A stretch of 64,000 nucleotides of DNA from an uncultured Bacteroidia bacterium (GTDB taxonomy: Bacteria; Bacteroidota; Bacteroidia; NS11-12g; UBA9320), in the NCBI GenBank assembly GCA_943846675.1, contig OX044357.1, forward strand, positions 1,546,010 through 1,610,009. The letters run 5' to 3'. This document shows, piece after piece, positions 3,076-22,368 of this stretch; the stretch's first letter is position 1; every line of letters begins with the position of its first letter. Made by a program: the position numbers and the translations under genes. The notes under the pieces are model-generated. The model was not told the origin of the DNA and searched no databases. It was given only the letters and a program-made list of their open reading frames with translations.

Positions 3076-3409
3076 AGAATAGACTTGATTATCCCTAGCA
3101 GGTAGGGGGAATCAGATTGTTATCGAACTTTTAAATCTGAGGTCTACAATCTATTTTGAGCGTTTTAAATAACACAGTAAAGAAATAATATTAAAAGATG
3201 GTAATAGTTATGAGAACATGATTAGTCTAACTACATTCTCACTATATCGGTGGCGCTTGAACATTGAAGTAGTTTCCAAAGACAAATGTAAAGATTTAGT
3301 AACTTGCCATAGTTAATGCAACAGAAGCTGCAACAGAACCAGAGCGGAATTTAGTGTTACTATATCTATTAAAATTTGTTAGTTTGCGTCAATATTAACG
3401 TAAAATCCA

Positions 3410-6394: not shown

Positions 6395-6699
6395 TAGTGT
6401 TATCACGGTGAACCTTACGGTGAGATATAAAAGTTCCTTCTCGTTCGCAGAAACGGTATATGAAACCTTTACATCGCCAAGCGGAAAAACATGGACAAAT
6501 TCAGGCACATATTTAGACACAATACCTAATGACGTTAATTGTGACAGCATCATAACGGTCGATTTGACTGTAATCAACAAGTTATTTGTCGATACAGATG
6601 GTTCATCAGGAACAGGAAAATCATGGGGGACTTCAATGAAAACACCTAGATGACGCCATCAAAGTAGCTAATGCAACGGGCAATCATGCTGAAATATGG

Positions 6700-9048: not shown

Positions 9049-9091
9049 TGAGAAAGTATCGTATTACTACACAAATACAATAAGAGAAGGC

Positions 9092-9122
9092 CATTCGTTT
9101 TACGGATGGCTTTTTTGTTGTT
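9092..9122 (+). terminator. rho-independent terminator downstream of giant gene 1 (identical copy at 17878..17908)
   Basis: ggccattcgttttacggatggcc is a stem-loop with one U-G wobble, followed by tttttt, about 45 nt after the stop codon. Confidence 0.6.
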
Positions 9123-9319
9123 CAATTGATTTGAAAATATAAAAAGTGAAGTAAACAAGATATCGGGTTCTGTTGCATTAACTTCCCCTGAATCCAGAAG
9201 TAACCAAATTCGATGTTTATTAAGCTGCTAAAGACTTAAATGTAGCAAACCAGTTTGACTTTGAATCTTTGATTTGGTCCTTTCTGTTGATGCAATCTAA
9301 AGGACAGAACCATAAATAA

Positions 9320-9469
9320 ACTTTTTCGCTTAATGACATAACAGTTGACCATGTGATACCATTGAGTGATATAAGCGACTATGATTTAAAGAAAGGGGCA
9401 CACACATGGGACAACGTTAAAACGTGTTGCATGGGTTGTAATACCCTTAAAGGGACTGACTTTGTATAA
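9320..9469 (+). pseudogene. remnant C-terminal fragment of an HNH endonuclease (no start codon)
   Basis: Translation is TFSLNDITVDHVIPLSDISDYDLKKGAHTWDNVKTCCMGCNTLKGTDFV*. It keeps the HNH signature (DH..P, N, CxxCN..KG) but is only about 49 codons long, with an upstream in-frame stop and no ATG. Confidence 0.5.
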
Positions 9470-9936
9470 ATATACACCCCAGCCCCCATTTCAAACATCC
9501 ATAGACAAGGCATGAGAAACGCAGCAATCTGTTATTTACACACGTGCAAGTTCAAAAAAAAGCCAAGTAGAGAAAGTCCAGTAAAGTAAAGGTCTAAAAG
9601 CGGTTATTGTCGACTATATGTAACCACATTAAAAAACAACTCCTAGATTATTGAAGAATTGCTTTGCAATTTGAGTGGTAACTAACAAAGATAAACTGCC
9701 GCAAATCCCTTGACAGGTAAGGGTTCGTTGAAATTTTAGACACAAAAAACCCCGACTTGGTACAGCCAGGGAATTTCGTTTAGCTCCGAAGAGCTAGTAG
9801 GGGGAATCAGAACGTTATCGAACTTTTTTGACGGTACAAAGGCCCGGCTATAAAATGTTGGGTAACGTTTAGGTTGGTTAGCCATGCATATTAGCCCTGT
9901 AAGGTGCTATGCACTAATTAAATTGTTATTTCAACT

Positions 9937-10272
9937 TTAGTACATTAAATGCTTTTTAGAACTTTCCTTCCACTGTGCTTTGTAGCTTGCATCTACGAAG
10001 AAGATTTTCAAATCTGCTTTATAAGCTGCATCCACGAAATATATTTTCTTTTTTGCCTTGTGAGCTGCATCTGTAAAAAACCATCTACCATTGTTATCTT
10101 CAGCCATATATGCTGCATCAACTTTGTAAACCAAAAGATCAGCTTTATATGCTGCGTCCACAACATAAACTTTAACATCCGCTTTGTAATCAGCATCTAC
10201 AGAATATATTAACTGGGCTTTAACGCTTGCACTAGCAATTAAAAGGGTTGTAATTAGGATTAATTTTTTCAT
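9937..10272 (-). CDS. small secreted protein made of tandem YKAD decapeptide repeats
   Basis: 111 aa. Signal peptide MKKLILITTLLIASASVKAQ, then about 7 repeats of x[VF]Y[VF]VDA[AS]YKAD[VL]K (VDADYKADVKVYVVDAAYKADLLVYKVDAAYMAED...IYFVDAAYKADLKIFFVDASYKAQWK). The conserved 19-bp motif sits 13-31 nt upstream. Confidence 0.55.
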   Translation of the reverse strand: MKKLILITTLLIASASVKAQLIYSVDADYKADVKVYVVDAAYKADLLVYKVDAAYMAEDNNGRWFFTDAAHKAKKKIYFVDAAYKADLKIFFVDASYKAQWKESSKKHLMY

Positions 10273-10805
10273 ATTGTTTCTTTTGGGTTCTGTTGCATTA
10301 ACTAGGGCAATTTACTATATCTTTAGATTTGAAATTAAAAACGACTTTAATGTTCAACCGTCACAGATATCCAAAATCAATAATTCTTCAAGCTGTTTAC
10401 TTTAAACTAAGATTTACAAAACAATATAGTTCAAAGACCGATTCTGTCGGATAATAACTCAAATAACCCACTGGGTTTTTCTACTATTCAAACTCCCATT
10501 GTAGCGGTTCATTAGTTGCATGTGAAATGGTTTCAAGTTTTGGGAAAACATAAGGCATCAGTTTAATCAAAAGCTCTATTCTTTGCTTTGGTTCCAACTC
10601 TTCGAGTCTTTCCTCAATATTCTCCAATTCCTACACATATCCCTCTATATACCAAGCTATCAATATCTTAAGTTGATAGCTGCTAATTTTTAAAACTAAT
10701 AGACTTAATGCCCTTAAGACACTGTCCAATGTTACTCTTTGTTTTTACAATAAATTTCTGCTTTGCAGAGTCCGAGTGAACATTTTATATGGCGTTTCTT
10801 ATACT

Positions 10806-11336
10806 TCAGAAATTTAACTGACTCTCCCAAGGAGGATTGAATTCTTTTACTCTTTTCATAGTACAATTTGGTCCAATCCAAATAACATAAGATAGCCCCG
10901 CTTGTAATTGGTTTCTGGTTCTATTCTGCAAGTAAGAGATATCAAAAATAAAGCGGTCATAACTACCTTTAATCCCAATTTTAGGAAGAATAGTGTAACT
11001 TTTTGTGTTTTCTCGGCTTGTTCGCTCCAATTGAGCTCCTAATACAGGAGTAAAACGATGTGCAACGTAGGCATGGTGCCAAGCTAATACGTTAAACTCT
11101 CCATTTATAAAAAAAGTAGAGAAGTCTTTATCATTCGAAAAAAGCACACCAGTATTTACAGCATACCTTAGATGCGAAAGACTCATTTTTGGGCCTGTTT
11201 GAGAAAAAGTGTTATTACTTAAACCTATTTGGTGTGAAATACCAGCAGATAGCATTTCGGATTTAAGTATCTGAGCTTTCAATTGATTAGCTGATAAAAT
11301 TAAGCACGTTATCAATATTATTTTTCTTGGATTCAT
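10806..11336 (-). CDS. small outer-membrane beta-barrel-like protein (hypothetical)
   Basis: The most probable start is MNPRKIILITCLILSANQLKAQ (signal peptide), 27 nt inside the tracked ORF. The protein has alternating amphipathic segments, aromatic residues, and a C-terminal ...SQLNF ending in Phe, as in OM beta-barrels. Confidence 0.45.
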   Translation of the reverse strand: MNPRKIILITCLILSANQLKAQILKSEMLSAGISHQIGLSNNTFSQTGPKMSLSHLRYAVNTGVLFSNDKDFSTFFINGEFNVLAWHHAYVAHRFTPVLGAQLERTSRENTKSYTILPKIGIKGSYDRFIFDISYLQNRTRNQLQAGLSYVIWIGPNCTMKRVKEFNPPWESQLNF

Positions 11337-11432
11337 CCCTTTGGTAACGTTTAGCAAATACAATTATTGTTTTTTGTAAATTGCTGGTATTAAAAGAATA
11401 GAGTTTTTAATAAACATCAATTTTTTTTACTT

Positions 11433-14400
11433 TTGGATTTGAGATTTCAAAAATTCAAGTCGCAAAATTTAAGTAGTATTATGAAATCATTTTACGTAGC
11501 TCGGCTAACAGCTGTACTTTTTTCCATTATTTGTTTTTCTTTTTCAAACACCGTAGCACAGTCATCAGGTGTGGTCAGCACGCTCGCTGGTAGTGGTGCA
11601 TCTGGCTATACAGATGGTACAGGGACATCGGCTCAGTTTTCCTATCCTATAGGAGTAGCGGTCGATGGCGCTGGAAATGTGTATGTAGCGGATCAGAATA
11701 ACCACCGCATTCGAAAAATAACTACATCAGGTGTGGTCAGCACGCTCGCTGGTAGTGGTACATCTGGCAATGCAGATGGTACAGGGACATCGGCTCAGTT
11801 TAACAATCCTTATGGAGTAGCGGTCGATGGCGCTGGAAATGTGTATGTAGCGGATTACAATAACCACCGCATTCGAAAAATAACTGCATCAGGTGTGGTC
11901 AGCACGCTCGCTGGTAGTACTCAGGGCAATACAGATGGTACAGGGACATCGGCTCAGTTTAACTCTCCTAGAGGAGTAGCGGTCGATGGCGCTGGAAATG
12001 TGTATGTAGCGGATGAGTATAACCACCGCATTCGAAAAATAACTGCATCAGGTGTGGTCGGCACCCTCGCTGGTAGTGCATCTGGCTATACAGATGGTAC
12101 AGGGACATCGGCTAAGTTTAAAAATCCTTATGGAGTAGCGGTCGATGGCGCTGGAAATGTGTATGTAGCGGATAGGTCAAACCACCGCATTCGAAAAATA
12201 ACTACATCAGGTGTGGTCAGCACGCTCGCTGGTAGTTCTCAGGGCTATACAGATGGTACAGGGACATCGGCTCAGTTTTACTATCCTAGCGGAGTAGCGG
12301 TCGATAGCGCTGGAAATGTGTATGTAGCGGATAAGGATAACCACCGCATTCGAAAAATAACTACATCAGGTGTGGTCAGCACGCTCGCTGGTAGTGGTAC
12401 ATCTGGCTATGCAGATGGTACAGGGACATCGGCTAAGTTTAACTATCCTTTCGGAGTAGCGGTCGATGGCGCTGGAAATGTGTATGTAGCGGATTACGTT
12501 AACCACCGCATTCGAAAAATAGGTCAGGCAACTTGCACAACACCCACAACACCATCACTAAGTGCATCACCTGATTCAATATGTAATGGGAATTCCAGTA
12601 CCTTGACCGTATCTGGATCAAAGAATGCTGCTTCAACTTGGAAGGTATATTCAGGTGGATGTGGAACTGGATTAGTTGATTCAATTACTGGAACTGGGAC
12701 TACATTATCCGTGTCACCAACCTCTACAACGAACTATTATGTCAGAGAAGAAGGTTGTGTAACAGCTGGAAGTTGCGGAACGACTGTTGTTACAGTGACA
12801 GCAGCTTCTTATAACACTATTACGGTAACGGTATGCGATACGTACACCTCTCCAAGTGGCAGGCATACCTGGTTTGTAACAGGAATATATAAAGACACGA
12901 TTCCAAACGCAGCAGGTTGCGATAGTATTCTAACAATAAACTTAACGGTAATTGCAACACCAATAGTTACTGTCAGCACGCTCGCTGGTAGTACATATGG
13001 CTATACAGATGGTACAGGGACATCGGCTAAGTTTTACAATCCTACTGGAGTAGCGGTCGATGGCGCTGGAAATGTGTATGTAGCGGATCGGTATAACCAC
13101 CGCATTCGAAAAATAACTACATCAGGTGTGGTCAGCACGCTCGCTGGTAGTGGTACATCTGGCAATGCAGATGGTACAGGGACATCGGCTCAGTTTTCCT
13201 ATCCTAGCGGAGTAGCGGTCGATAGCGCTGGAAATGTGTTTGTAGCGGATCGCAATAACCACCGCATTCGAAAAATAACTGCATCAGGTGTGGTCAGCAC
13301 GCTCGCTGGTAGTACTCAGGGCTATACAGATGGTACAGGGACATCGGCTAAGTTTGACTCACCTACAGGAGTAGCGGTCGATGGCGCTGGAAATGTGTAT
13401 GTAGCGGATCTGTATAACCACCGCATTCGAAAAATAACTGCATCAGGTGTGGTCAGCACCCTCGCTGGTAGTGCATCTGGCTATACAGATGGTACAGGGA
13501 CATCGGCTAAGTTTAAAAATCCTACAGGAGTAGCGGTCGATGGCGCTGGAAATGTGTATGTAGCGGATTACAATAACCACGGCATTCGAAAAATAACTAC
13601 ATCAGGTGTGGTCAGCACGCTCGCTGGTATTGCATATGGCTATACAGATGGTACAGGGACATCGGCTAAGTTTAAAAATCCTTATGGAGTAGCGGTCGAT
13701 GGCGCTGGAAATGTGTATGTAGCGGATCGGGATAACCACCGCATTCGAAAAATAACTACATCAGGTGTGGTCAGCACGCTCGCTGGTAGTTCTCAGGGCT
13801 ATACAGATGGTACAGGGACATCGGCTCAGTTTGCCTATCCTTTCGGAGTAGCGGTCGATGGTACTGGAAATGTGTATGTAGCGGATGAGTCAAACCACCG
13901 CATTCGAAAAATAACGTTAAGTGCTGGTAGTGCTGAAACGACTGAAACGATAACAGCAAATGTATGCGATACGTACACCTCTCCAAGTGGCAGGCATACC
14001 TGGTTTGTAACAGGAATATATAAAGACACGATTCCAAACGCAGCAGGTTGCGATAGTATTCTAACAATAAACTTAACGGTAATTGCAACACCAATAGTTA
14101 CTGTCAGCACGCTCGCTGGTAGTACTCAGGGCAATACAGATGGTACAGGGACATCGGCTCAGTTTTCCTATCCTACAGGAGTAGCGGTCGATGGCGCTGG
14201 AAATGTGTATGTAGCGGATCAGGATAACCACCGCATTCGAAAAATAACTACATCAGGTGTGGTCAGCACGCTCGCTGGTAGTGGTACACCTGGCTATACA
14301 GATGGTACAGGGACATCGGCTAAGTTTTACTTACCTATCGGAATAGCGGTCGATGGCGCTGGAAATGTGTATGTAGCGGATAGGTCAAACCACCGCATTC

Positions 14401-17400
14401 GAAAAATAACTGCATCAGGTGTGGTCAGCACCCTCGCTGGTAGTACTCAGGGCTATGCAGATGGTACAGGGACATCGGCTAAGTTTAACGTTCCTTTCGG
14501 AGTAGCGGTCGATGGCGCTGGAAATGTGTATGTAGCGGATTACAATAACCACCGCATTCGAAAAATAACTACATCAGGTGTGGTCAGCACGCTCGCTGGT
14601 AGTACATATGGCTATACAGATGGTACAGGGACATCGGCTCAGTTTGCCTATCCTTATGGAGTAGCGGTCGATGGCGCTGGAAATGTGTATGTAGCGGATA
14701 GGTCAAACCACCGCATTCGAAAAATAACTGCATCAGGTGTGGTCAGCACGCTCGCTGGTAGTTCTCAGGGCTATACAGATGGTACAGGGACATCGGCTAA
14801 GTTTTACTATCCTAGCGGAGTAGCGGTCGATGGCGCTGGAAATGTGTATGTAGCGGATCGGTCAAACCACCGCATTCGAAAAATAACTGCATCAGGTGTG
14901 GTCAGCACCCTCGCTGGTAGTACATATGGCTATACAGATGGTACAGGGACATCGGCTAAGTTTTACTTACCTACAGGAGTAGCGGTCGATGGCGCTGGAA
15001 ATGTGTATGTAGCGGATTACGTTAACCACCGCATTCGAAAAATAACGTTAAGTGCTGGTAGTGCTGAAACAACAGAAACGATAACAGCAAATGTATGCGA
15101 TAGCTATACCTCTCCAAGTGGAAAAACTTGGACAACAAGCAACACGTATTCAGATACGATTCCAAACACTGCGGGTTGTGATAGTGTTATCACGGTGAAC
15201 CTTACGGTGAGATATAAAAGTTCCTTCTCGTTCGCAGAAACGGTATATGAAACCTTTACATCGCCAAGCGGAAAAACATGGACAAATTCAGGCACATATT
15301 TAGACACAATACCTAATGACGTTAATTGTGACAGCATCATAACGGTCGATTTGACTGTAATCAACAAGTTATTTGTCGATACAGATGGTTCATCAGGAAC
15401 AGGAAAATCATGGGGGACTTCAATGAAAAACCTAGATGACGCCATCAAAGTAGCTAATGCAACGGGCAATCATGCTGAAATATGGGTGCGCAAGGGCATG
15501 TATTATCCTGGCGGACAATCGAGCAGCAATCGAGATTCAGCGTTCCTAATTACCAATCCAAATGTTGAATTATTAGGAGGTTTTTCTGGAACAGAGACAG
15601 AGCCTGGTCAACGAAATCAAACGGCCAATCCAACCATATTGTGTGGAGATATCGGTACAACAAACGATTCCTCTGACAATGTATACCACGTATTGATTAT
15701 TGCACCAAACGGATCAGACATCGGACCTAATTTTAAACTAGATGGGTTAACCTTTAAAAACGGTAACGCTGACGGGAACTCAAAATACACCTACGAAAAT
15801 AGAGATGTATATCAATCAGAGGGTGGCTCAATAGTTATTCTGGGTAGTGGTAAGTCTGGTCAAGAGATTAGTCCAACGATTACCAATTGTCATTTTGAAG
15901 GAAATTATGGCGATTATGGCTCGATTTACATACGCGTGCCTAATGGTAAGTCTTTTGCAACCATTAGCCATTGTACGTTTAAAAACAACCATTCAATTTA
16001 TGGCGCTATCTTTAACGATGGTCAAGCAGGTGAAGTATCTCCAAACATTGTAAACTGTGCCTTTGATGGCAACACAAGTGCCACTTCGGGTGCAGCGATA
16101 TACAACTATGGTTATGGAGGCAAATGCTCTCCTACAATCACAAGTTGTGTGTTTAACAGCAACAGTGCTAGTTCAATGGGAGGAGCAATCTATAACACGG
16201 GTTATGGTGGAACATCCAATCCAGTGATCACAAACGCTACCTTCCATGCAAACGCAGCTGGTTCTCATGCAGGAGCGATGTATAGCTTTGGTAACAGCGG
16301 AACATGCCAACCTAAGGTGACCAACTCTATCTTTTACAAAAACACAAAAGGTGGAGATGATGACCATAAGTTTAGTGAGTTCTATAACTATGCAGCGTAT
16401 CCATACATAAAAAATAGTTCGATGCAACGTGCAAGCTCAACATACACAGCAAGCACATTCAACAGCTTAAATAGTGGAACAAACAACATCTTCCAGACCA
16501 ATCCAAACTTTGAGGCGATTGCCGATGGCAATGGTGCGGATGATGTTTGGAGAACAGGAGATGATGGATTGAGATTATCTTCCTCAAGTACCAACTTGTT
16601 AAACGGTGGAACCAATACAGGTGCCCCAACTGCGGATATCTTAGGAAATCAGCGTATGGGAACAACCGACATGGGTGCTTACGAGTATGTCAACTGTGGC
16701 TTAAATGTTAAACTAGCTACTTCGGTTACCACTCATACAGCAACGCAAAGTGTTGTGGATGGTAATTTTGTATGCTACTGTAACAGCGACAATGAATTAC
16801 TCTTGGCTCTTGACACCAATGGAACTGGGGCGGTGATTACACCTAGTCAGGTAAAACTATACATTGGCAATCCATCAACCTTGAGTTACAACTCTGCTGG
16901 CGGTATGATAACCAACACGGCTGGTGGTGTGATACTAGAAAGACGTTGGGATGTGGAACCAACGACTCAACCAACTTCACCAGTAACGGTTCGTTACTTC
17001 TACACCAACGACAACTACGACGACATTGTAACGGCTATGGCTGGATTAACATCGCCTACAACCATTACTTCGCCAAGTCAACTACAGTTTTACAAGGTAA
17101 CAGGCGGCTCATCGGCAACCTTCCCGAACCCACATGATACGGGTGTAACGGGTATTGTACTGACCAACGGAACAACAGCCAGCACAACAGTGTGGGTTAA
17201 TGGAACACATGGTGTACAAGACCATACAGCAGAATACCTAGTAAGCACGTTCTCCGGTGGTGGAGGCGGAGGCGGGGGTGGATCTAGCCCACTACCAGTG
17301 GAACTGATCCAGTTCGAAGCAAGCCCAGCAGCTAGTCATACAGCAGACCTTACATGGAAGACCGCATCAGAGCTAAACAACTCACATTTTGTAGTTGAAC

Positions 17401-17834
17401 GTAGCTATGATGGTAGAGACTTCCAGGCAGCAGCAATTGTTCAAGGAAACGGTACCACACAAAACGTGATTACCTACAACCACAACGACAATACGATTGA
17501 TCTAGCACAAAACACTGTGTTCTATCGATTACGTCAGGTGGACTTTGATGGCACCACGGCTTACTCACCAGTAAGACGAGTAGACTTTGAAGGCAGCATC
17601 ATACCAAACAGCGTAACGCTTTATCCAAACCCAACAAAAGGAACGGTTACGGTTAGCTTTACAGACGATGAGGCTGAAAGTCATGCGATTAAAGTAATTG
17701 ACAACCTCGGAAGAGAGCTGTACAAGCAAACCTTCGACGGACAAGCCATAGAGCTTGATTTGTCGAGCCAAGCAACGGGTATCTACTTTATCATTTTAGA
17801 TTCTGGTGAATCCTTTAAAGTGATTAAACAGTAG
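11433..17834 (+). CDS. giant T9SS-secreted surface protein: NHL-repeat arrays + 2-Cys modules + Pmp-like beta-helix + FN3/Ig-like + T9SS type-A CTD
   Basis: 2133 aa with a signal peptide. It has about 19 copies of a 47-aa NHL repeat (SGVVSTLAGS..GYTDGTGTSA.F..P.GVAVDGAGNVYVAD..NHRIRKIT) in three blocks separated by a Cys-rich Ig-like segment and 2-Cys TITANVCD[ST]YTSPSG modules. The C-terminal 930 aa match 6125..9048 apart from the two single-base insertions in that copy, and end in LYPNP...IYFIILD...KVIKQ. Confidence 0.85.
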   Translation: MDLRFQKFKSQNLSSIMKSFYVARLTAVLFSIICFSFSNTVAQSSGVVSTLAGSGASGYTDGTGTSAQFSYPIGVAVDGAGNVYVADQNNHRIRKITTSGVVSTLAGSGTSGNADGTGTSAQFNNPYGVAVDGAGNVYVADYNNHRIRKITASGVVSTLAGSTQGNTDGTGTSAQFNSPRGVAVDGAGNVYVADEYNHRIRKITASGVVGTLAGSASGYTDGTGTSAKFKNPYGVAVDGAGNVYVADRSNHRIRKITTSGVVSTLAGSSQGYTDGTGTSAQFYYPSGVAVDSAGNVYVADKDNHRIRKITTSGVVSTLAGSGTSGYADGTGTSAKFNYPFGVAVDGAGNVYVADYVNHRIRKIGQATCTTPTTPSLSASPDSICNGNSSTLTVSGSKNAASTWKVYSGGCGTGLVDSITGTGTTLSVSPTSTTNYYVREEGCVTAGSCGTTVVTVTAASYNTITVTVCDTYTSPSGRHTWFVTGIYKDTIPNAAGCDSILTINLTVIATPIVTVSTLAGSTYGYTDGTGTSAKFYNPTGVAVDGAGNVYVADRYNHRIRKITTSGVVSTLAGSGTSGNADGTGTSAQFSYPSGVAVDSAGNVFVADRNNHRIRKITASGVVSTLAGSTQGYTDGTGTSAKFDSPTGVAVDGAGNVYVADLYNHRIRKITASGVVSTLAGSASGYTDGTGTSAKFKNPTGVAVDGAGNVYVADYNNHGIRKITTSGVVSTLAGIAYGYTDGTGTSAKFKNPYGVAVDGAGNVYVADRDNHRIRKITTSGVVSTLAGSSQGYTDGTGTSAQFAYPFGVAVDGTGNVYVADESNHRIRKITLSAGSAETTETITANVCDTYTSPSGRHTWFVTGIYKDTIPNAAGCDSILTINLTVIATPIVTVSTLAGSTQGNTDGTGTSAQFSYPTGVAVDGAGNVYVADQDNHRIRKITTSGVVSTLAGSGTPGYTDGTGTSAKFYLPIGIAVDGAGNVYVADRSNHRIRKITASGVVSTLAGSTQGYADGTGTSAKFNVPFGVAVDGAGNVYVADYNNHRIRKITTSGVVSTLAGSTYGYTDGTGTSAQFAYPYGVAVDGAGNVYVADRSNHRIRKITASGVVSTLAGSSQGYTDGTGTSAKFYYPSGVAVDGAGNVYVADRSNHRIRKITASGVVSTLAGSTYGYTDGTGTSAKFYLPTGVAVDGAGNVYVADYVNHRIRKITLSAGSAETTETITANVCDSYTSPSGKTWTTSNTYSDTIPNTAGCDSVITVNLTVRYKSSFSFAETVYETFTSPSGKTWTNSGTYLDTIPNDVNCDSIITVDLTVINKLFVDTDGSSGTGKSWGTSMKNLDDAIKVANATGNHAEIWVRKGMYYPGGQSSSNRDSAFLITNPNVELLGGFSGTETEPGQRNQTANPTILCGDIGTTNDSSDNVYHVLIIAPNGSDIGPNFKLDGLTFKNGNADGNSKYTYENRDVYQSEGGSIVILGSGKSGQEISPTITNCHFEGNYGDYGSIYIRVPNGKSFATISHCTFKNNHSIYGAIFNDGQAGEVSPNIVNCAFDGNTSATSGAAIYNYGYGGKCSPTITSCVFNSNSASSMGGAIYNTGYGGTSNPVITNATFHANAAGSHAGAMYSFGNSGTCQPKVTNSIFYKNTKGGDDDHKFSEFYNYAAYPYIKNSSMQRASSTYTASTFNSLNSGTNNIFQTNPNFEAIADGNGADDVWRTGDDGLRLSSSSTNLLNGGTNTGAPTADILGNQRMGTTDMGAYEYVNCGLNVKLATSVTTHTATQSVVDGNFVCYCNSDNELLLALDTNGTGAVITPSQVKLYIGNPSTLSYNSAGGMITNTAGGVILERRWDVEPTTQPTSPVTVRYFYTNDNYDDIVTAMAGLTSPTTITSPSQLQFYKVTGGSSATFPNPHDTGVTGIVLTNGTTASTTVWVNGTHGVQDHTAEYLVSTFSGGGGGGGGGSSPLPVELIQFEASPAASHTADLTWKTASELNNSHFVVERSYDGRDFQAAAIVQGNGTTQNVITYNHNDNTIDLAQNTVFYRLRQVDFDGTTAYSPVRRVDFEGSIIPNSVTLYPNPTKGTVTVSFTDDEAESHAIKVIDNLGRELYKQTFDGQAIELDLSSQATGIYFIILDSGESFKVIKQ

Positions 17835-17877
17835 TGAGAAAGTATCGTATTACTACACAAATACAATAAGAGAAGGC

Positions 17878-17908
17878 CATTCGTTTTACGGATGGCTTTT
17901 TTGTTGTT
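17878..17908 (+). terminator. rho-independent terminator (duplicate of 9092..9122)
   Basis: Identical hairpin plus T-run within the duplicated cassette. Confidence 0.6.
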
Positions 17909-18043
17909 CAATTGATTTGAAAATATAAAAAGTGAAGTAAACAAGATATCGGGTTGGTGAAAGTATTTACGGATATAAGTTGGTTTAAGACCAGTAGCTA
18001 GTTACGAATACTAGTTTTATATATTACTAACGCGTAATATTAT

Positions 18044-19015
18044 TTGTATATTCGCTTTATGGAGTTCAAACCCCTTGAATCATATCTATCTGATCCTAGT
18101 CCTTACACAAGCCGTAGACTCGTGGAACAGTTGGGTGAGGAAAAGTTTACCATTAATGACATAGGCGTTAGTTCACGGGTGTTTACCCATTGGCGATCAA
18201 ATGGGTTAATCCCTTATATGGAGGATGGTTCATGGGTAAAATTGAATGTGTTTCAATTTATCTGGGTACAGATAATTAAAGACTTGCGTGCGTTTAACTT
18301 TTCTTTAAAGCAGATTGTCAAAGTACGCGCTTCGCTATTTGAGTCCTTCGAAGGGTTTGCTACGGCGGATTTGTTTGATAAAAAAGGAAAGATAACCAAG
18401 GTATTGCGAGCACAGCTTAAAAAGATGTTCGACAATCACCAAGAGATAATTGAAGGCTTAGAAAGTAGTTTCGAGTCGGATTCAAATTCAATAAAAGATT
18501 TCCTTGAGGCTTTTCAAATCCCATTGCTCCTATCACTTAGCTTGAACGTATTGTTCCGTGCAATGGATCACACGCTACTGATTAGGCCAGATGGTCGAGT
18601 TGATTATACTTCAGAAACGCAAGACGAGACATTGGTCAATTACTTGTCCGAGCACGATGCGGAGTCCATCTTGGTGCTTCCACTCAAAAAGTACATTCTG
18701 GTGCTGGTATCGACAAAAAAACTAGAAGATAAAGTTGGTAATATGGCCCTGGTTACCCAAGTTGAAATGGAAGTTTTACAAGCCATGCGGCAGGGAACGC
18801 TATCCGAACTTAGAATAATTTTTGACCCCAAAGACCAACACGCAGATTTGGTGTATACCTATAAAGGGGTTGTACCCGAAAATGAAATGAGTAAAGTTTT
18901 AGATCGTTTTCGGCATAAAAAACACGTTCAATTGTCTATGAAAACCAATGACGGTAAAACGGTATCTTTCGAATACCAAGACCGAAAACGGGTCCATAAA
19001 TTAAATGGAAATTAA
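18044..19015 (+). CDS. MerR/excisionase-like winged-HTH protein with a C-terminal domain of unknown function
   Basis: 323 aa. The N-terminus (TINDIGVSSRVFTHWRSNGLIPY...VKLNVFQFIWVQIIKDLRAFNFSLKQI) matches the MerR/Xis HTH_17 pattern. The remaining roughly 230 aa have no recognisable motif. It sits immediately upstream of the iterons and the serine recombinase. Confidence 0.5.
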   Translation: MYIRFMEFKPLESYLSDPSPYTSRRLVEQLGEEKFTINDIGVSSRVFTHWRSNGLIPYMEDGSWVKLNVFQFIWVQIIKDLRAFNFSLKQIVKVRASLFESFEGFATADLFDKKGKITKVLRAQLKKMFDNHQEIIEGLESSFESDSNSIKDFLEAFQIPLLLSLSLNVLFRAMDHTLLIRPDGRVDYTSETQDETLVNYLSEHDAESILVLPLKKYILVLVSTKKLEDKVGNMALVTQVEMEVLQAMRQGTLSELRIIFDPKDQHADLVYTYKGVVPENEMSKVLDRFRHKKHVQLSMKTNDGKTVSFEYQDRKRVHKLNGN

Positions 19016-19100
19016 TTGATAATTAATTCAGATTAATTGATAATAAACTCGGATTAATTGATAATTAATTCAGATTAATTGATAATAAACTCGGATTAAT
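19016..19100. repeat. tandem 41-bp iterons rich in ATTAAT(N5)ATTAAT palindromes
   Basis: ggattaattgataattaattcagattaattgataataaactc is repeated about 2.3 times and contains at least 6 copies of TTAATTGAT. It lies between the MerR-like gene and the recombinase gene. Confidence 0.7.
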
Positions 19101-19235
19101 TGATTTTTAAATGGAAATTAATGGACAAAAAGAGGTGTAGATGCAGTAATGACAAGGCATTGAAGAACTCAAGCCAATTAAATACGGGTTCATTAGAAAC
19201 GGAAACACCGCTAATGGGCATACTCCAATTGAGTT

Positions 19236-19379
19236 ATGTCAGAAAAGTCAAAACAAGGACTTACAATACAAGAATTAAAAACCTATAGCGGATTTGAAAA
19301 ACTAAGTGAGAAGGAATTAGAACAAGCGCTTCGATTTATTGAGTTGATGAGTGAGGTGCTTATTGAAACATTGAAATAA
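19236..19379 (+). CDS. possible small ORF (47 aa, helical) upstream of the recombinase; a speculative RDF/Xis-like candidate
   Basis: MSEKSKQGLTIQELKTYSGFEKLSEKELEQALRFIELMSEVLIETLK* ends 8 nt before the recombinase start. There is no homology evidence, and it overlaps the tracked ORF 19100..19288 in another frame. Confidence 0.25.
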   Translation: MSEKSKQGLTIQELKTYSGFEKLSEKELEQALRFIELMSEVLIETLK

Positions 19380-19386
19380 AAGAATA

Positions 19387-21015
19387 ATGCAGCATGTAGA
19401 TCAACAATTGGCAGTCTTTGCCAAAGGGCAAAAGAACAACAAAGGGAAGGCCATTACAGCGGTCATGTATACCCGTGTATCGACCAAGGAACAGGCCGAT
19501 AACAATCAGAGTCTCTTTACGCAAGCAAAGCACATCAAGCAATTTGCAATGAACAATGATTTGCAGATAATAGGGGAATTTGGTGGGACTTATGAAAGCG
19601 CCAAGAGTGATGAACGGGTTCAGTTCAAACAAATGATTGCCTTTGTCAAAAGACATAAGGTAGATGCCATTGTGGTATACTCGATGGATCGCTTTTCAAG
19701 AAGTGGTCCCAATGCTATTTACATTTCAGAACAACTCAGAAAGATAGGTACTGAGATTATATCTGTAACCCAACCTGTAGACGCCTCTACAGCTGCTGGG
19801 GAATTGCAACAGGGAATTTACTTTATGTTCTCACAATATGAGAATCAGCAAAGGCGCTTAAAGTCCATGGCGGGCACCCGTGAAAAGCTATTACAAGGAC
19901 ATTGGGTTACCAAACCACCCTTAGGGTACAAGAAGATCACAGAAGGTGGACAAAAGAAAATAGTCATCACAAAAGAAGGTAGATTGCTGGCAGCAGCATT
20001 TAGAAGAAAGATTAAGTACAACTACGAATTTACTGAAATTAGTAAGTGGCTGTCAACAAGAGGTCTAAAGGTGAGTCATAAAAGATTATCTGAGTTATGT
20101 AGAAACGTATTTTATTGCGGTTTCATGGCCCATCAGGCATTAAATGGAGAGATTGTAAAGGGCAATCATGAAGGACTCATCACACGTAATGAGTTCTTGA
20201 AGCTGAATGGCATGCTTCAAATCAGACCTGCCAAAAAGCCAAAATCAAAAATGTTGGATCATCTACCCTTAAAGAGGCACATGCATTGCTCAAAGTGCAG
20301 CAAACCAATGACGGGTTACTTTGTGCGACCAAAGAAGTTATATTACTACAAGTGCAATACGAAAGGTTGTAAAGTCAATAGAAGTGCTAAGGTGTTAAAC
20401 CGAAACTGGGAACAGACGCTTTCCAATCTTCAGATAGATGCAAAATACGTTACACCCATCCAAGAACAGCTCAAACGAAAGCTCGAAAGCTTAAAAGAAG
20501 ACTCTGGTGATGGGCTAAAACAGTATCGCAGTAACAAAACAAAGGTTGAGAGGAAGATAGAGATGTTGGAAGAACGATTTGTAATAGGAGAAATTACCAA
20601 AGACTTATTTGATAAGTACGCTGCTAAATATAGAGAAGAATTGGTGGCAATATTAGAAGAAATCGACAAATGTGGAATTTCATTATCGAACCCTGATCAG
20701 GTAATCAAGCAGGCCACTGATTTGATGTCTAAACTTCAGAAAACCTGGCAGTTATCAAAATCAACAGAAAGATCAAAGTTGCTTAAAGCGGTCTACCCAA
20801 GCGGAATTTGGCTTGATCCTGAAAATAACAGTTATCGAACTTTTGGTTTGAACCCAGCGGTGCGCTGTATCCTAGATATAACGGGGAAATCCGTAGAAAA
20901 GGAAAAGCGGAATAGTGAAGATAAACTCACATATTCCGCTTTGGTAGCCCCTAGGGGAATCGAACATAGCTTCGTATCATTCGCTGGAGCTAATATACCT
21001 ATTTTAACATTTTAA
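19387..21015 (+). CDS. large serine recombinase (resolvase catalytic domain + recombinase domain + zinc-ribbon)
   Basis: 542 aa. It carries the catalytic motif VMYTRVSTKEQ...SMDRFSRSG (resolvase/invertase N-terminal domain), a long recombinase domain, a Cys-rich zinc ribbon (CSKCSKPMTGYF...YYYKCNTKGC) and a C-terminal coiled-coil. Confidence 0.85.
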   Translation: MQHVDQQLAVFAKGQKNNKGKAITAVMYTRVSTKEQADNNQSLFTQAKHIKQFAMNNDLQIIGEFGGTYESAKSDERVQFKQMIAFVKRHKVDAIVVYSMDRFSRSGPNAIYISEQLRKIGTEIISVTQPVDASTAAGELQQGIYFMFSQYENQQRRLKSMAGTREKLLQGHWVTKPPLGYKKITEGGQKKIVITKEGRLLAAAFRRKIKYNYEFTEISKWLSTRGLKVSHKRLSELCRNVFYCGFMAHQALNGEIVKGNHEGLITRNEFLKLNGMLQIRPAKKPKSKMLDHLPLKRHMHCSKCSKPMTGYFVRPKKLYYYKCNTKGCKVNRSAKVLNRNWEQTLSNLQIDAKYVTPIQEQLKRKLESLKEDSGDGLKQYRSNKTKVERKIEMLEERFVIGEITKDLFDKYAAKYREELVAILEEIDKCGISLSNPDQVIKQATDLMSKLQKTWQLSKSTERSKLLKAVYPSGIWLDPENNSYRTFGLNPAVRCILDITGKSVEKEKRNSEDKLTYSALVAPRGIEHSFVSFAGANIPILTF

Positions 21016-21089
21016 TTTCCAGCACCTTGGGTCTTACGGCTTTTCCGAGGTTACCCTTCGAAAATTACTGAAGGGTTAAAAAGGGGGAT

Positions 21090-21230
21090 TTAGGATTTAG
21101 GAATTAGGAGTTAGGGGAGGAGAGGAAAGAGAAAAGAGAATAGAGAAAAGACCTTACTAATCTGCCAATAGCTAATAGCCAAAAGCCAATAGCGATTAGG
21201 GATCGCCTAAATGAATAGAGAAAATAGATT
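21090..21230. repeat. low-complexity TTAGG / AGAGAAnAGAG / AATAGC repeat tract related to 2988..3075
   Basis: gggggatttaggatttaggaattaggagttaggggaggagaggaaagagaaaagagaatagagaaaag...gccaatagctaatagccaaaagccaatagcgattaggg. Confidence 0.6.
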
Positions 21231-21342
21231 TAAGAGATTAAGTCTAAAATTTCTCAATACTTTATACTTATATATCCCTTCTCCGTTAATAACTTTTACT
21301 CCAAACAAATTATTAGAACTTTGGGTTTGCTATTTTTGAATT

Positions 21343-22368
21343 GTGCAAAACGAAAATCTTGATCCGTCTTTAGATAACTTGTCAAATTCTGATAGAGACA
21401 TTGAGAAAGTACTCCGCCCTGCCAGTTTTAGTGACTTTAGTGGGCAAGACAAGATTCTGACAAATCTGAAGATTTTTGTTCAAGCCGCCGTTCAGCGGGG
21501 AGAAGCATTAGACCATGTATTGCTTCATGGGCCTCCAGGGTTGGGTAAAACGACTTTAAGTAACATTATCGCTAACGAGATGAATAGCGCGATAAAAGTG
21601 ACAAGTGGTCCTGTCTTAGAGAAACCCGGTGATTTAGCAGGTTTGTTGACGAACTTAGAAGAAGGCGATGTACTTTTTATTGACGAGATACATCGACTGA
21701 GCCCGGTAATAGAAGAGTATTTGTATTCGGCCATGGAGGATTATCGAATCGATATCATGCTCGATACCGGTCCGAACGCCAGAAGTGTGCAGATAACCAT
21801 TAACCCATTCACCCTTGTGGGCGCCACGACACGTTCAGGATTGCTTACGGCGCCTTTACGCGCACGATTTGGTATTACTTGTCGATTAGAATACTACGAT
21901 GCATCCTTGCTCGCTCAAATTCTGAAACGGTCGTCCGATATTTTACATACACAGATTGATGACCAAGCGGCGAATGAAATAGCGCGTAGAAGTAGAGGTA
22001 CACCACGTATAGCGAACGCACTTTTACGTCGGACAAGAGATTTTGCCCAGATTAAGGGTAACGGTCAAGTAGACCTTGAAATAGCTAAATATGCCTTAGA
22101 GGCTTTAAATGTAGATGCTACTGGTCTGGACGAAATGGACAACCGTATTTTGAGTACGATTATTGAAAAGTTTAAAGGAGGCCCAGTCGGTATTAATACC
22201 ATTGCTACAGCGGTCGGAGAGGAAGCCGGCACGATTGAAGAAGTGTACGAACCTTTTTTAATTAAGGAAGGCTATATCCAACGAACAGCCAGAGGTAGAG
22301 AAGCAACGCATTTGGCATACGAACATTTGGGTAAAATCCCTCCGCAAAAAATAAACAGTTTGTTTTGA
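21343..22368 (+). CDS. ruvB: Holliday junction branch-migration helicase RuvB
   Basis: 341 aa with the AAA+ Walker A motif [19 protein letters not shown] and the RuvB C-terminal winged helix. It reads colinearly into the next gene. Confidence 0.9.

What the first reader, a model, noticed from the sequence alone, without database searches (positions are those of the whole stretch)
18044..21015. MerR/Xis-like HTH protein, 41-bp ATTAAT iterons and a large serine recombinase: a compact candidate recombination module
A winged-HTH (excisionase/MerR-like) protein with a novel ~230-aa C-terminal domain is followed by ~2.3 tandem copies of a 41-bp unit full of ATTAAT-N5-ATTAAT palindromes (19016..19100). 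Next comes a possible 47-aa helical ORF (19236..19379), then a 542-aa large serine recombinase. Large serine recombinases need a recombination directionality factor, and RDFs are very diverse. An HTH protein and a small ORF immediately upstream are plausible RDF or regulator candidates. The palindromic iterons are plausible binding sites or part of an att site.
Basis: partly seen in the sequence, partly recalled or inferred. Interest (0 to 1): 0.65.

Follow-up and report, generated by a model that had tools for sequence, protein, structure and literature searches.

The report
Serine-integrase element targeting tRNA gene ends
The three genes are the conserved recombination module of a multi-copy mobile element of marine Bacteroidia. 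Its large serine recombinase inserts the element exactly at the 3' end of several different tRNA genes, a target class little documented for this enzyme family, but the flagged "iterons" are only a variable, lineage-specific repeat.

Summary
The described features are real. There is a 318-aa MerR-type protein (true start 18059), a 21-bp AT-rich repeat (19011..19104), a conserved 47-aa ORF and a large serine recombinase (LSR).

This trio recurs in every lineage found. One MAG holds at least 6 copies. LSRs identical over 519 aa lie next to tRNA-Met and tRNA-Leu, and one differing by a single residue lies next to tRNA-Glu. More distant relatives lie next to tRNA-Arg and tmRNA.

Every complete copy ends ...TATTCCGCTTTG|GTAG at the last nucleotides of the tRNA. 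Left ends start GTAG-GGGGAATC... In the window the element spans about 9797..20947 (11 kb) and carries a giant NHL/T9SS surface-protein gene as cargo. Related lineages have a 3.3-kb cargo-free form.

The iterons are not att sites. They exist only in the closest clade, with 2-5 copies.

Three features are conserved everywhere:
- a two-hairpin RNA-like motif (19156..19219), with no Rfam match and strong covariation
- a terminal terminator hairpin
- T-loop-like TTATCGAAC motifs at fixed offsets from both ends

The roles of the MerR-like protein (regulator or directionality factor) and of the 47-aa protein are inferred, not shown.

Verdict: a new variant of a known kind, and moderately to highly interesting.

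The parts
9797..9830 (+). Left end (attL) of the element that holds the finding: core GTAG followed by the element arm GGGGAATCAGAACGTTATCGAACTTTT.
   Evidence: The same motif follows unrelated flanks in L013, L014, L015, L017, L020, L021 and at window 3102. The window matches L015 continuously at 98.3% from 9796 to 20948.
10806..11363 (-). 185-aa ORF of unknown function inside the element.
   Evidence: ORF list. No Pfam hit.
11433..17834 (+). Cargo: a 2133-aa secreted surface protein with 18 NHL repeats and a T9SS C-terminal sorting domain.
   Evidence: Pfam NHL 1.4e-156 and Por_Secre_tail 9.8e-12. It lies between the element ends in all copies of the window lineage.
18021..18040 (.). Palindrome ATATTAC-N6-GTAATAT immediately 5' of the MerR-like gene. 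Candidate operator (inferred).
   Evidence: the repeat finder pair I4, 100% complementary. By eye, similar TAC..GTA palindromes sit upstream of the gene in L007 and in the L024 lineage (A7).
18059..19015 (+). 318-aa MerR-type DNA-binding protein: winged HTH plus coiled-coil helix at about residues 30-125, then an uncharacterised C-terminal region of about 190 aa.
19011..19104 (.). It is specific to this lineage and varies in copy number.
   Evidence: TRF. Copy number is 5, 4, 3 or 2 among near-identical copies. Absent from most lineages.
19156..19219 (+). Conserved two-hairpin RNA-like motif in the leader of the small-ORF/LSR genes. HP1 is 19156-19175 (3 bp, bulged A, 4 bp, 5-nt loop). HP2 is 19188-19219.
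   Evidence: Present at the same place in every lineage. 17 of 19 pairs carry compensatory changes, 89% of cells are paired, and 0 of 500 shuffles reach the observed values. G-U pairs occur on the + strand. The covariance model hits once per element and on the + strand only, including distant L067, L070 and L071. No Rfam family matches.
19236..19379 (+). 47-aa helical protein, conserved partner of the LSR. Candidate directionality factor or cofactor (inferred).
   Evidence: Conserved in all lineages, with the motif G(L/I)T..EL...GF.....ELE.AL.FI..M.E. Analogous 45-65-aa ORFs occur in distant members. Its stop codon overlaps the LSR start (TAATG) in L009. No family hit.
19387..21015 (+). Large serine recombinase. 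The conserved protein ends near 20943. The last 23 codons read through the junction core, a tRNA fragment and flanking DNA.
   Evidence: Pfam, PHROG and NCBIfam hits. Catalytic-domain matches to 3guv and TP901-1 integrase. The motifs YTRVSTKEQ and DRFSR can be read in the sequence.
20683..20691 (+). T-loop-like motif TTATCGAAC, 260 nt before the right junction, inside the LSR gene.
   Evidence: The same offset (-257 to -260) is found in all lineages tested with a mapped junction: window, L015, L026, L027, L049, L040, L009. The same spacing to the tRNA-like copy holds in L022 and L023. It is embedded as Leu-Ser-Asn (TTA TCG AAC) in the window and L026.
20832..20840 (+). Second TTATCGAAC motif, 111 nt before the right junction.
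   Evidence: The same offset (-108 to -111) is found in the window, L015, L026, L027, L049, L040, L009 and L070 (-109), with the same spacing in L022 and L023. Here it is read in another frame, as Tyr-Arg-Thr (TAT CGA ACx). All 4 occurrences of TATCGAAC in the 64-kb window lie at element ends.
20907..20939 (.). Terminal hairpin GCGGAATAGTGA...TCACATATTCCGC. On the minus strand it is followed by a T run, so it acts as a replacement terminator for the tRNA. It probably also forms the element-side arm of the att site.
   Evidence: The sequence is conserved in all lineages directly before the tRNA 3' end, even where the LSR is only about 45% identical.
20942..20965 (-). Right junction (attR). The first three bases, TGG, are element DNA that gives the tRNA a CCA end. 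Then come the core GTAG (20944-20947) and only the last ~21 nt of tRNA-Glu, after which the sequence is unrelated.
   Evidence: Identical to the 3' end of the intact tRNA-Glu in L001 and L021. No tRNA gene is found in the window. The rest of tRNA-Glu is absent from the window.
3102..9796 (+). Upstream sister element without a recombination module. It has the same left end (GTAG GGGGAATCAGATTGTTATCGAAC), two surface-protein genes and a degenerate right end with a tRNA-like fragment at 9757-9778. Together with the main element it forms a tandem array.
   Evidence: The 3' 2.8 kb of its cargo and the 121 nt after it repeat at 15153-17955.

Best explanation
Window 18059..20947 is the integration/excision module of a site-specific integrative element. 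In this genome the element runs from about 9797 to 20947 and carries a giant NHL/T9SS surface-protein gene as cargo.

Shown:
- The large serine recombinase lies at the right edge of the element.
- The element is joined to the chromosome at a 4-nt core, GTAG, which overlaps the last nucleotides of a tRNA or tmRNA gene on the opposite strand.
- The tRNA stays intact. The element supplies a CCA sequence and a new terminator hairpin.
- Recombinases identical over 519 aa sit at tRNA-Met and tRNA-Leu, and one differing by a single residue sits at tRNA-Glu.

Inferred mechanism:
- The recombinase joins an element site (ATTCC-N12-GGAAT, centred on TTTG|GTAG) to the tRNA end.
- It reads the acceptor/T-arm DNA, whose GAATCGAAC (T-loop) sequence nearly all tRNAs share. 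That would explain the use of several tRNAs.
- After insertion the right junction still looks like a target (hairpin, GTAG, tRNA), so new copies insert there and build tandem arrays such as 3102-9796 plus 9797-20947.
- Extra TTATCGAAC copies at fixed distances from both ends are probably accessory binding sites.
- The MerR-type protein is most likely the element's dimeric transcriptional regulator. It would act on its own promoter palindrome and control expression of the downstream genes. A role as a DNA-binding directionality factor is the alternative.
- The structured leader between it and the 47-aa gene probably gates translation or stability of the 47-aa/recombinase message.
- The 47-aa protein is probably made together with the recombinase, and it is the best candidate for a directionality factor or cofactor.
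- The 21-bp AT-rich repeats are a lineage-specific spacer expansion with no general role.
For: Module conservation:
- MerR-like gene, small ORF and LSR occur in this order in every lineage with enough sequence downstream to judge, apart from decayed copies (L013, L014, L028).
- The same holds for relatives sharing only about 20% identity.

Mobility:
- At least 6 copies occur in MAG AE_MB266, at different loci.
- The LSRs at tRNA-Met, tRNA-Leu, a tandem junction and the window show 0 differences in 519 aa. The tRNA-Glu copy shows 1 difference.

Targets:
- tRNA-Glu, Met, Leu and Arg, and tmRNA, always on the opposite strand with the 3' end abutting the element.
- The junction sequence ...TATTCCGCT(T/C)|TGGTAG is conserved.

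Left ends and element size:
- Left ends carry the GTAG core after unrelated flanks that look like tRNA terminators.
- Joining the L026 flanks reproduces the uninterrupted tRNA-Glu plus trailer of L028.
- Homology between copies of the L024 lineage spans only 3.3 kb.
- Tandem or attP-like junctions occur in L017 and in 8 loci of the L024 lineage.

Components:
- TTATCGAAC motifs sit at fixed offsets and in two different reading frames.
- RNA motif covariation.
- No relative was found in viral contigs.
Against: - No excised circle and no strictly isogenic empty site was observed. Mobility is inferred from comparative structure.
- The window copy itself does not sit next to an intact tRNA. It is followed by only about 21 nt of tRNA-Glu and then unrelated DNA, which simple attP x attB recombination does not explain.
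- Copies in the window lineage always include the paralogous giant gene, so homologous recombination could have contributed to their spread.
- The crossover dinucleotide within GTAG is not determined.
- Which protein binds TTATCGAAC is unknown.
- The roles of the MerR-like protein, the 47-aa protein and the RNA motif rest on position and conservation only.
- The RNA motif could act as DNA.
Confidence: 0.8

Rival explanations
1. The MerR-like protein, not the 47-aa protein, is the recombination directionality factor. In this reading it is a DNA-binding, Xis-like architectural protein that binds near the att sites, for example at the TTATCGAAC motifs, and switches the LSR to excision.
For: - It is strictly linked to this LSR family in all lineages examined.
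- It has a winged-HTH fold of the MerR/excisionase kind.
- It diverges faster than the LSR (33-43% against 45-69% identity), as RDFs often do.
- Repeated motifs flank both element ends.
Against: - At about 310 aa, with a MerR-type coiled-coil dimerisation helix, it resembles regulators (CvkR, NmlR, BmrR) rather than 60-100-aa Xis proteins.
- TTATCGAAC is not a palindrome of the kind MerR dimers bind.
- A palindrome sits at its own promoter.
- There is no direct evidence for either role.
Confidence: 0.3
2. The 21-bp ATTAATTGAT repeats are functional iterons, that is, binding sites for the MerR-like protein or the LSR that regulate the downstream operon in this clade. This is what the first reader proposed.
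For: - The units are spaced 21 bp apart, about two helical turns.
- They lie directly between the regulator gene and the regulated genes.
- The core occurs nowhere else in the window.
- L009 has a different short repeat at the same place.
Against: - They are absent from most lineages that keep all other parts.
- Copy number drifts (5, 4, 3, 2) among 96-99% identical copies, even within one genome.
- The palindromic version of the unit is lost in L001.
- AT-rich minisatellites arise readily by slippage.
Confidence: 0.2
3. The copies spread by segmental duplication and homologous recombination among the paralogous giant surface-protein genes. In this reading the LSR is a passenger, or a domesticated recombinase such as an invertase for surface-protein variation.
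For: - Every copy of the window lineage includes about 2.8 kb of near-identical giant-gene 3' end.
- L007 shows a recombinant breakpoint inside the MerR-like gene.
- Some copies are truncated (L013, L014).
Against: - Copies share precise ends at GTAG next to different tRNAs.
- A 3.3-kb form without any surface-protein gene has the same ends.
- The empty-site reconstruction works.
- No inverted copies of the ends flank the cargo.
- Distant members carry unrelated cargo, for example a type I restriction-modification system plus GmrSD, or an ISL3 transposase.
Confidence: 0.07
4. The conserved two-hairpin block acts as DNA rather than RNA. It could be, for example, an origin of transfer or single-strand initiation site for mobilisation, or an operator.
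For: - The 3.3-kb elements have no transfer genes and must be mobilised in trans.
- Hairpins with conserved loops are typical of oriT and ssi sites.
- Covariation alone cannot separate RNA from single-stranded DNA.
Against: - G-T (G-U) pairs occur only in the + strand sense.
- A conserved bulged A makes a double-stranded palindrome unlikely.
- The block always lies directly 5' of the small ORF start codon, on the coding strand.
Confidence: 0.15

Closest known systems
Large serine recombinase integrative elements (phiC31, Bxb1, A118, TP901-1 integrases; SCCmec Ccr; Tn4451 TnpX / Tn5397 TndX)
   Same: - Same enzyme architecture: Resolvase, Recombinase and zinc-ribbon domains followed by a coiled-coil region.
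- The integrase gene sits at the edge of the element.
- The att core is short.
- The element site shows imperfect inverted symmetry.
- Some of these systems use a small adjacent protein as directionality factor (TP901-1 Orf7; from my own knowledge).
   Different: - The target is the 3' terminus of tRNA/tmRNA genes, and one recombinase uses several tRNA species.
- The enzyme always comes with a dedicated ~310-aa MerR-type protein, a ~47-aa protein and a structured leader.
- Motifs resembling the target are repeated at fixed offsets up to ~260-310 bp from the core, whereas LSR att sites are normally ~40-50 bp with no accessory sites (from my own knowledge).
- Mageeney et al. 2020 (PMC7192596) state that use of a t(m)RNA gene by an S-Int had not been reported, and found it in only 14 of 297 cases.
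Tycheposons of Prochlorococcus (Hackl et al., bioRxiv 10.1101/2020.12.28.424599)
   Same: - Marine cargo-carrying elements that integrate at tRNA genes.
- They leave partial tRNAs and degenerate remnants, form tandem junctions and build islands.
- A minority (27 of 937) carry a large serine recombinase.
   Different: - Tycheposons mostly use tyrosine recombinases, each specific for one tRNA, and many carry replication genes.
- Here the host is Bacteroidia and the enzyme is always an LSR.
- One enzyme serves several tRNAs.
- No replication genes are present.
- The accessory genes are different.
Multi-targeting LSRs (Durrant et al. 2022, PMC10083194) and the IS607 family of serine transposases
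   Same: Serine recombinases that occur in several copies per genome at more than one target.
   Different: - The multi-targeting LSRs described there recognise short degenerate motifs (this recollection is my own; the paper's text was not read here).
- IS607 enzymes are small serine recombinases with an N-terminal HTH.
- Here the targets are a defined class (tRNA/tmRNA 3' ends) and the insertion point is precise.
- The NCBIfam IS607 model scores 45 bits against a cut-off of 110.
CvkR, the MerR-type repressor of type V-K CRISPR-associated transposons (PDB 7xn2)
   Same: - It is also a MerR-type protein encoded in a mobile element next to the genes it controls (its function is from my own knowledge).
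   Different: - Sequence identity is only 13%.
- CvkR has 148 residues and lacks the ~190-aa C-terminal region.
- It controls a Cas12k/Tn7-like transposon, not a serine recombinase.

Membership tests
Large serine recombinase (serine integrase) | N-terminal resolvase catalytic domain with the catalytic serine motif | tested here: met
   Pfam Resolvase 8.7e-26 over profile positions 1-144 of 145. YTRVSTKEQ and DRFSR are present in the translation. The domain matches 3guv and the TP901-1 integrase catalytic domain.
Large serine recombinase (serine integrase) | C-terminal Recombinase domain plus zinc-ribbon domain | tested here: met
   Pfam Recombinase 4.5e-6 (27.3 bits against a cut-off of 21.1). 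Zn_ribbon_recom scores only 15.2 bits against a cut-off of 25.3, but the four cysteines CSKC...C....C are present. PHROG 95 integrase 5.4e-70 over residues 12-468.
Large serine recombinase (serine integrase) | Catalyses attP x attB integration with a 2-nt crossover | not testable with these tools
   Only junction comparison is available. There is a common GTAG core at both ends and one empty-site reconstruction.
XisF / CcrA / CcrB / CcrC / IS607 equivalogs (NCBIfam) | Score above the curated equivalog cut-off | tested here: not met
   XisF 98 bits against 375, CcrB 71 against 900, CcrA 61 against 700, CcrC 44 against 900, IS607 45 against 110. The protein belongs to none of these named subfamilies.
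MerR family transcriptional regulators | N-terminal winged HTH (MerR_1) followed by a long dimerisation helix | tested here: met
   - The window protein alone is below threshold.
- The family profile that includes it hits HiNmlR at E 1.2e-6 and BmrR at 0.01, over positions 34-122.
- Homologues pass the MerR_1 cut-off.
MerR family transcriptional regulators | Binds a palindromic operator in a promoter and regulates transcription, usually in response to an effector bound by the C-terminal domain | not testable with these tools
   [not shown]
Excisionase / Xis-type RDF (HTH_17) | Small (about 60-100 aa) winged-helix protein matching HTH_17 or Xis models | tested here: not met
   No HTH_17 or excisionase hit for the 318-aa or the 47-aa protein in Pfam, NCBIfam or PHROGs. 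This leaves open a role that works like an RDF.
Iterons / att-site repeats | Repeats conserved beside homologous recombinases, or present at the element junctions | tested here: not met
   The repeats occur only in the closest clade, with variable copy number, and are absent elsewhere. The junctions lie 1.8 kb and 9 kb away.
Known RNA families (Rfam 15) | Covariance-model match | tested here: not met
   No match at E up to 10 in 17800-21400, apart from a chance narK hit inside the LSR gene.
Tycheposons | tRNA-targeting cargo element with an integrase plus replication genes, one tRNA per integrase clade | tested here: not met
   No replication genes are present in the 3.3-kb or 11-kb forms. One LSR sequence serves three tRNAs. 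The concept is similar, but this element is not a member.

The most novel reading that the evidence does not exclude
This would be a large, undescribed family of Bacteroidota serine-integrase elements. About 1,300 clusters at 50% identity of the partner protein were found. The recombinase would recognise the universally conserved T-arm DNA of tRNA and tmRNA genes, and so could insert at the 3' end of many different tRNAs. It would use an unusually complex site, with target-like TTATCGAAC accessory motifs up to ~260-310 bp from the core. Activity would be controlled by a dedicated three-part circuit: a MerR-type protein with a new C-terminal domain, a 47-aa partner protein and a new structured RNA leader.
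Probability: 0.35. Interest if true: 0.8.

Novelty: new variant of a known kind. Interest (0 to 1): 0.62.

Why it matters
**Target class.** Serine integrases are valued genome-engineering tools, and their natural targets are almost always protein-coding or intergenic sites. tRNA genes have been regarded as the domain of tyrosine integrases. Mageeney et al. 2020 called t(m)RNA use by serine integrases unreported and in need of proof.

**What this family offers.** A whole family that inserts cleanly at the 3' end of several tRNAs without damaging them would give:
- a natural multi-site but predictable landing system
- a test case for how a serine integrase reads a conserved structural-RNA gene
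- two new obligate partner proteins and an RNA leader whose roles in directionality or regulation can be tested directly

**Ecology.** In these uncultured marine Bacteroidia, the family shows how giant surface-adhesin genes and defence systems are multiplied and moved, and how tandem islands grow next to tRNA genes.

Tried and rejected
- **Direct family searches.** Pfam, NCBIfam and PHROG searches with the 323-aa and 47-aa proteins gave nothing. The MerR assignment needed distant homologues, a family profile and a second structure model.
- **First structure model.** It was built from 6 sequences and had pLDDT 62. It gave only weak Foldseek hits.
- **hhalign.** I do not rely on it.
- **Second module copy.** The 324-aa and 549-aa ORFs at 37-40 kb looked like a possible second copy. 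blastn and tblastn found none.
- **tRNA in the window.** None was found. The remainder of tRNA-Glu was also not found.
- **Left-end motif in distant lineages.** The window-lineage motif was not found there. Those ends were found instead by comparing copies.
- **Viral contigs.** No relatives were found, so a prophage origin was rejected. A scan with the 70-sequence alignment failed because no stretch was conserved enough.
- **Riemerella 10K island (PMC6764341).** Checked as a possible precedent. It uses a tyrosine integrase.
- **Iterons as an att site or conserved operator.** Rejected.
- **L028 as a clean empty site.** Only partly usable. It holds a decayed element remnant (the MerR-like gene cut after hairpin 1) 1.3 kb from an uninterrupted tRNA-Glu.

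Full report
**1. Observation**

- ORF 18044..19015 is open. Alignment with homologues shows the real start is ATG 18059, giving 318 aa.
- The repeat spans 19011..19104. Its basic unit is 21 bp (ATTAATTGATAAT plus 8 variable bases). There are 4 full units and a 10-nt part of a fifth. This equals a 42-bp unit x 2.2 copies at 100% identity. The core ATTAATTGAT occurs five times in the 64-kb window, all of them in this array.
- ORF 19236..19379 (47 aa) is conserved at the protein level across lineages.
- ORF 19387..21015 is a large serine recombinase (LSR): Resolvase 8.7e-26, Recombinase 4.5e-6, PHROG 95 integrase 5e-70. It reaches none of the NCBIfam cut-offs for XisF, CcrA, CcrB, CcrC or IS607.

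**2. The trio is a conserved, mobile module**

A word-based search found only five homologues of the first protein. All are followed by a 46-52-aa ORF and an LSR, in different genomic contexts.

A scan of species-representative genomes found 17 loci. At least six copies sharing 98-99% identity lie in one MAG (uncultured Bacteroidia AE_MB266). A metagenome scan added 36 more loci.

The trio is present wherever enough sequence is available. The exceptions are decayed copies (L013, L014, L028).

A full HMMER scan of 1.84 billion representative proteins shows the first protein belongs to a large family. There are 1,317 clusters at E <= 1e-3, mostly about 310 aa long.

Members sharing only about 20% identity were looked up in seven places. 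Six hold DNA (five distinct loci), and there the protein again precedes an LSR of 515-531 aa. In four of the five loci a small ORF of 45-65 aa was called or can be read between the two genes. The seventh place came without DNA and has a 139-aa gene downstream. No relative occurs in IMG/VR viral contigs.

**3. Where the element ends**

*Right end.* All copies share ...GCGGAATAGTGA-N9-TCAnnTATTCCGCT(T/C)|TGGTAG. They then diverge into the 3' end of a tRNA gene on the opposite strand:

| Target | Loci |
|---|---|
| tRNA-Met | L015, L016, L018, L009, L040, L044, L056 |
| tRNA-Leu-GAG | L020 |
| tRNA-Glu | L001, L021, L025-L027, L032, L043, L050 |
| tRNA-Arg-CCT | L038, L049, L053, L054 |
| tmRNA (distant relatives) | L067, L070 |

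The first 519 residues of the LSR are identical in four copies: the tRNA-Met copy, the tRNA-Leu copy, a tandem-junction copy and the window copy. The tRNA-Glu copy differs at one residue. So one enzyme serves several tRNAs.

*Left end.* In the window lineage the left end is GTAG-GGGGAATCAGA(AC/TT)GTTATCGAACTTTT, preceded by unrelated DNA that looks like the terminator of a minus-strand tRNA. It occurs at window 9797 and 3102 and in L014, L015, L017 and L020. L013 and L021 carry the arm without an intact core.

*Extent in the window.* The window matches L015 continuously from 9796 to 20948. The element holding the finding is therefore about 11.15 kb. Its cargo is the 2133-aa protein with NHL repeats and a T9SS sorting domain.

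*The cargo-free form.* In the L024 lineage, homology between copies at different loci runs only from about -450 to +2830 relative to the MerR-like start. That is a 3.3-kb element with no cargo. Its left end is GTAGCA(C/A)GAATC...TTTATCGAAC.

*Empty-site check.* Joining the left and right flanks of L026 reproduces the uninterrupted tRNA-Glu plus native trailer hairpin seen in L028. A further 848 bp of the right flank is 88% identical.

*The insertion point.* The core GTAG overlaps the last nucleotides of the tRNA. The tRNA stays whole. The element supplies CCA (TGG on the + strand) and, on the tRNA strand, a hairpin followed by a T run that serves as a replacement terminator.

*Symmetry.* The element-to-element junction in L017 reads ATATTCCGCTTTG|GTAG|AGGGAATC. 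It has the imperfect inverted symmetry ATTCC-N12-GGAAT expected of a serine-integrase site.

**4. Tandem arrays**

The right junction after insertion still has the form hairpin, GTAG, tRNA, so it resembles a target.

Consistent with this, L017 has a second element joined directly to the first. Eight loci of the L024 lineage carry a solo right-end fragment of 60-110 bp immediately before the left end.

In the window, 3102..9796 is a sister element that has lost its recombination module. It carries two surface-protein genes, and its degenerate right end holds a tRNA-like fragment at 9757-9778.

**5. Target-like motifs**

TTATCGAAC resembles the T-loop DNA GAATCGAAC. It lies at -257/-260 and -108/-111 from the right junction in all seven lineages with a mapped junction. 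The same spacing holds in L022, L023 and L070.

Both copies are inside the LSR gene but in two different reading frames: TTA TCG AAC (Leu-Ser-Asn) and TAT CGA ACx (Tyr-Arg-Thr). This points to selection on the DNA itself.

On the left side the motif lies at +20 in the window lineage and at +27 in L026. In L026 it occurs again at +193 and, inverted, at +314 within the 420-bp non-coding leader; the other L024-lineage copies carry the same three sites at similar offsets.

All four TATCGAAC occurrences in the 64-kb window are at element ends, against 1.57 expected anywhere.

GAATC starts at +7 from the core in the element arm and at +13 in tRNA-Glu. I infer that these motifs are recognition or accessory sites. 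Which protein binds them is unknown.

**6. The first protein**

The window protein has no direct Pfam hit. Three other lines of evidence place it in the MerR family:

- Relatives pass the MerR_1 cut-off at residues ~34-92.
- A 70-sequence family profile that includes the window protein hits MerR structures: HiNmlR at E 1.2e-6 and BmrR at 0.01, over positions 34-122.

**7. The repeats**

The 21-bp units number 5, 4, 3 or 2 among copies that are 96-99% identical, including within one MAG. L009 has a different short repeat at the same place. All other lineages have none; there the stop codon of the MerR-like gene is followed within 10-25 nt by the conserved block described next.

The repeats are therefore a lineage-specific, unstable spacer expansion. 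They are neither an att site nor a conserved operator.

**8. A conserved structured leader**

A ~65-nt block directly 5' of the small ORF (window 19156..19219) is present in every lineage. It folds into two hairpins.

- Across 14 lineages, 89% of cells are paired and 17 of 19 pairs show compensatory changes. No shuffle out of 500 reaches the observed values on any measure, and the slid controls are far lower. This alignment was fitted to the model. An independent MAFFT alignment of 15 sequences gives 88% paired, 9 pairs with compensatory changes and 0 of 500 shuffles on four of the five measures. RNAalifold predicts the same helices.
- Hairpin 1 keeps a bulged A and a 5-nt loop while its upper stem changes completely: UUGA/UCAA, CUGA/UCAG, CCCA/UGGG, CCGG/CCGG.
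- G-U pairs occur on the + strand.
- The covariance model hits once per element and on the + strand only.
- Rfam has no match.

I infer a cis-acting RNA that gates expression of the 47-aa/LSR genes. A function as single-stranded DNA cannot be excluded.

**9. The 47-aa protein**

It has no family hit, but its motif is conserved in all lineages: G(L/I)T..EL...GF.....ELE.AL.FI..M.E. Analogous small ORFs exist in distant members. In L009 its stop codon overlaps the LSR start (TAATG). It is the best candidate for a directionality factor or cofactor, by inference only.

**10. Comparison with what is known**

The enzyme is an ordinary LSR by domain content. The lifestyle resembles tycheposons (bioRxiv 10.1101/2020.12.28.424599): cargo elements at tRNA genes, partial tRNAs and tandem junctions. 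Tycheposons, however, mostly use tyrosine recombinases specific for one tRNA each, and they carry replication genes.

Mageeney et al. 2020 (PMC7192596) found t(m)RNA use in only 14 of 297 serine-integrase elements. They called it previously unreported and in need of proof.

No paper found here describes this LSR family, its MerR-type and 47-aa partners or the leader motif.

**11. Unexplained**

- The window copy is followed by only about 21 nt of tRNA-Glu and then unrelated DNA leading to ruvB. Similar truncated tRNA fragments, each followed by an AGCT-type hairpin, occur at 9757-9797 and in L008.
- L007 is 99.97% identical to the window from 18761 onward. Upstream of that point it has a different lineage's N-terminal 240 codons of the MerR-like gene. 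An independent contig confirms the left part but stops 18 nt before the junction. This could be a real recombinant or an assembly artefact through a repeat.

**12. Verdict**

It is the recombination module of a tRNA-end-targeting serine-integrase element family. The iteron interpretation is wrong. I rate it a new variant of a known kind, with interest about 0.6.

Noticed in passing
window 19156-19219 (+), and the same position in L008-L010, L022-L029, L038-L056, L067, L070 and L071: A conserved two-hairpin RNA-like motif with no Rfam family lies between the MerR-like gene and the small ORF. Hairpin 1 keeps a bulged A and a 5-nt loop while its stem covaries completely.
   Followed up: yes
window 3120-3128, 9815-9823, 20683-20691, 20832-20840; fixed offsets in L009, L015, L022, L023, L026, L027, L040, L049 and L070: The T-loop-like motif TTATCGAAC recurs at conserved distances from both element ends. 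Inside the LSR gene it is embedded in two different reading frames. It is a possible accessory or recognition site.
   Followed up: partly
window 21086-21193 and 2990-3054: Back-to-back arrays of different heptamers lie in the intergenic DNA outside the two outer ends of the element array: GGATTTA x4, AGAGAAA x4 and GCCAATA x4 on one side, AATAGCG x6 and GTTAGCT x3 on the other. The two regions share about 32 nt at 90% identity. Their origin and function are unknown.
   Followed up: no
window 20944-20995 and 9757-9797; L008 3095-3125: Three junctions carry only the last ~16-21 nt of a tRNA, ending right after the T-loop-like ATCG(AAC). In the window two of these fragments are followed by an AGCT...AGCT hairpin. 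Simple attP x attB recombination does not explain them.
   Followed up: partly
L007 1-1540 against window 18761: A contig from the same strain (99.97% identity over 10 kb, including ruvB-priA) switches lineage inside the MerR-like gene. The N-terminal 240 codons and the upstream DNA differ. An independent contig, L057, stops 18 nt before the switch. This is either a recombinant element or an assembly join through a repeat.
   Followed up: partly
window 3410-9169 and 11433-17955: The giant surface-protein genes are paralogous mosaics. The last 2.8 kb plus 121 nt of trailer are duplicated (6365-9169 matches 15153-17955). The 2133-aa protein holds 159-nt NHL units organised in 477-nt super-repeats, with 18 NHL repeats in all.
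   Followed up: partly
window 9373-9470: The spacer between the two tandem elements contains what reads, by eye, like the C-terminal fragment of an HNH-type nuclease ORF (...DYDLKKGAHTWDNVKTCCMGCNTLKGTDFV*). It is probably a decayed gene. No search was run on it.
   Followed up: no
L066 1-5000; L070 1187-2407; L067 3119-6830: Distant members of the same module carry other cargo or neighbours: a type I restriction-modification system with GmrSD (L066), an ISL3 transposase (L070), and a sigma-70 factor with a PKD/T9SS protein beyond the tmRNA (L067).
   Followed up: no
window 18021-18040: A perfect palindrome, ATATTAC-N6-GTAATAT, lies directly upstream of the MerR-like start codon. By eye, analogous TAC..GTA palindromes precede the gene in L007 and in the L024 lineage. 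It is a candidate autoregulatory operator.
   Followed up: partly
L028 9600-11045: A decayed copy. The MerR-like gene is intact, but the leader is cut right after hairpin 1 and replaced by unrelated genes. The neighbouring tRNA-Glu has its native trailer and no encoded CCA, so it served as an approximate empty site.
   Followed up: yes
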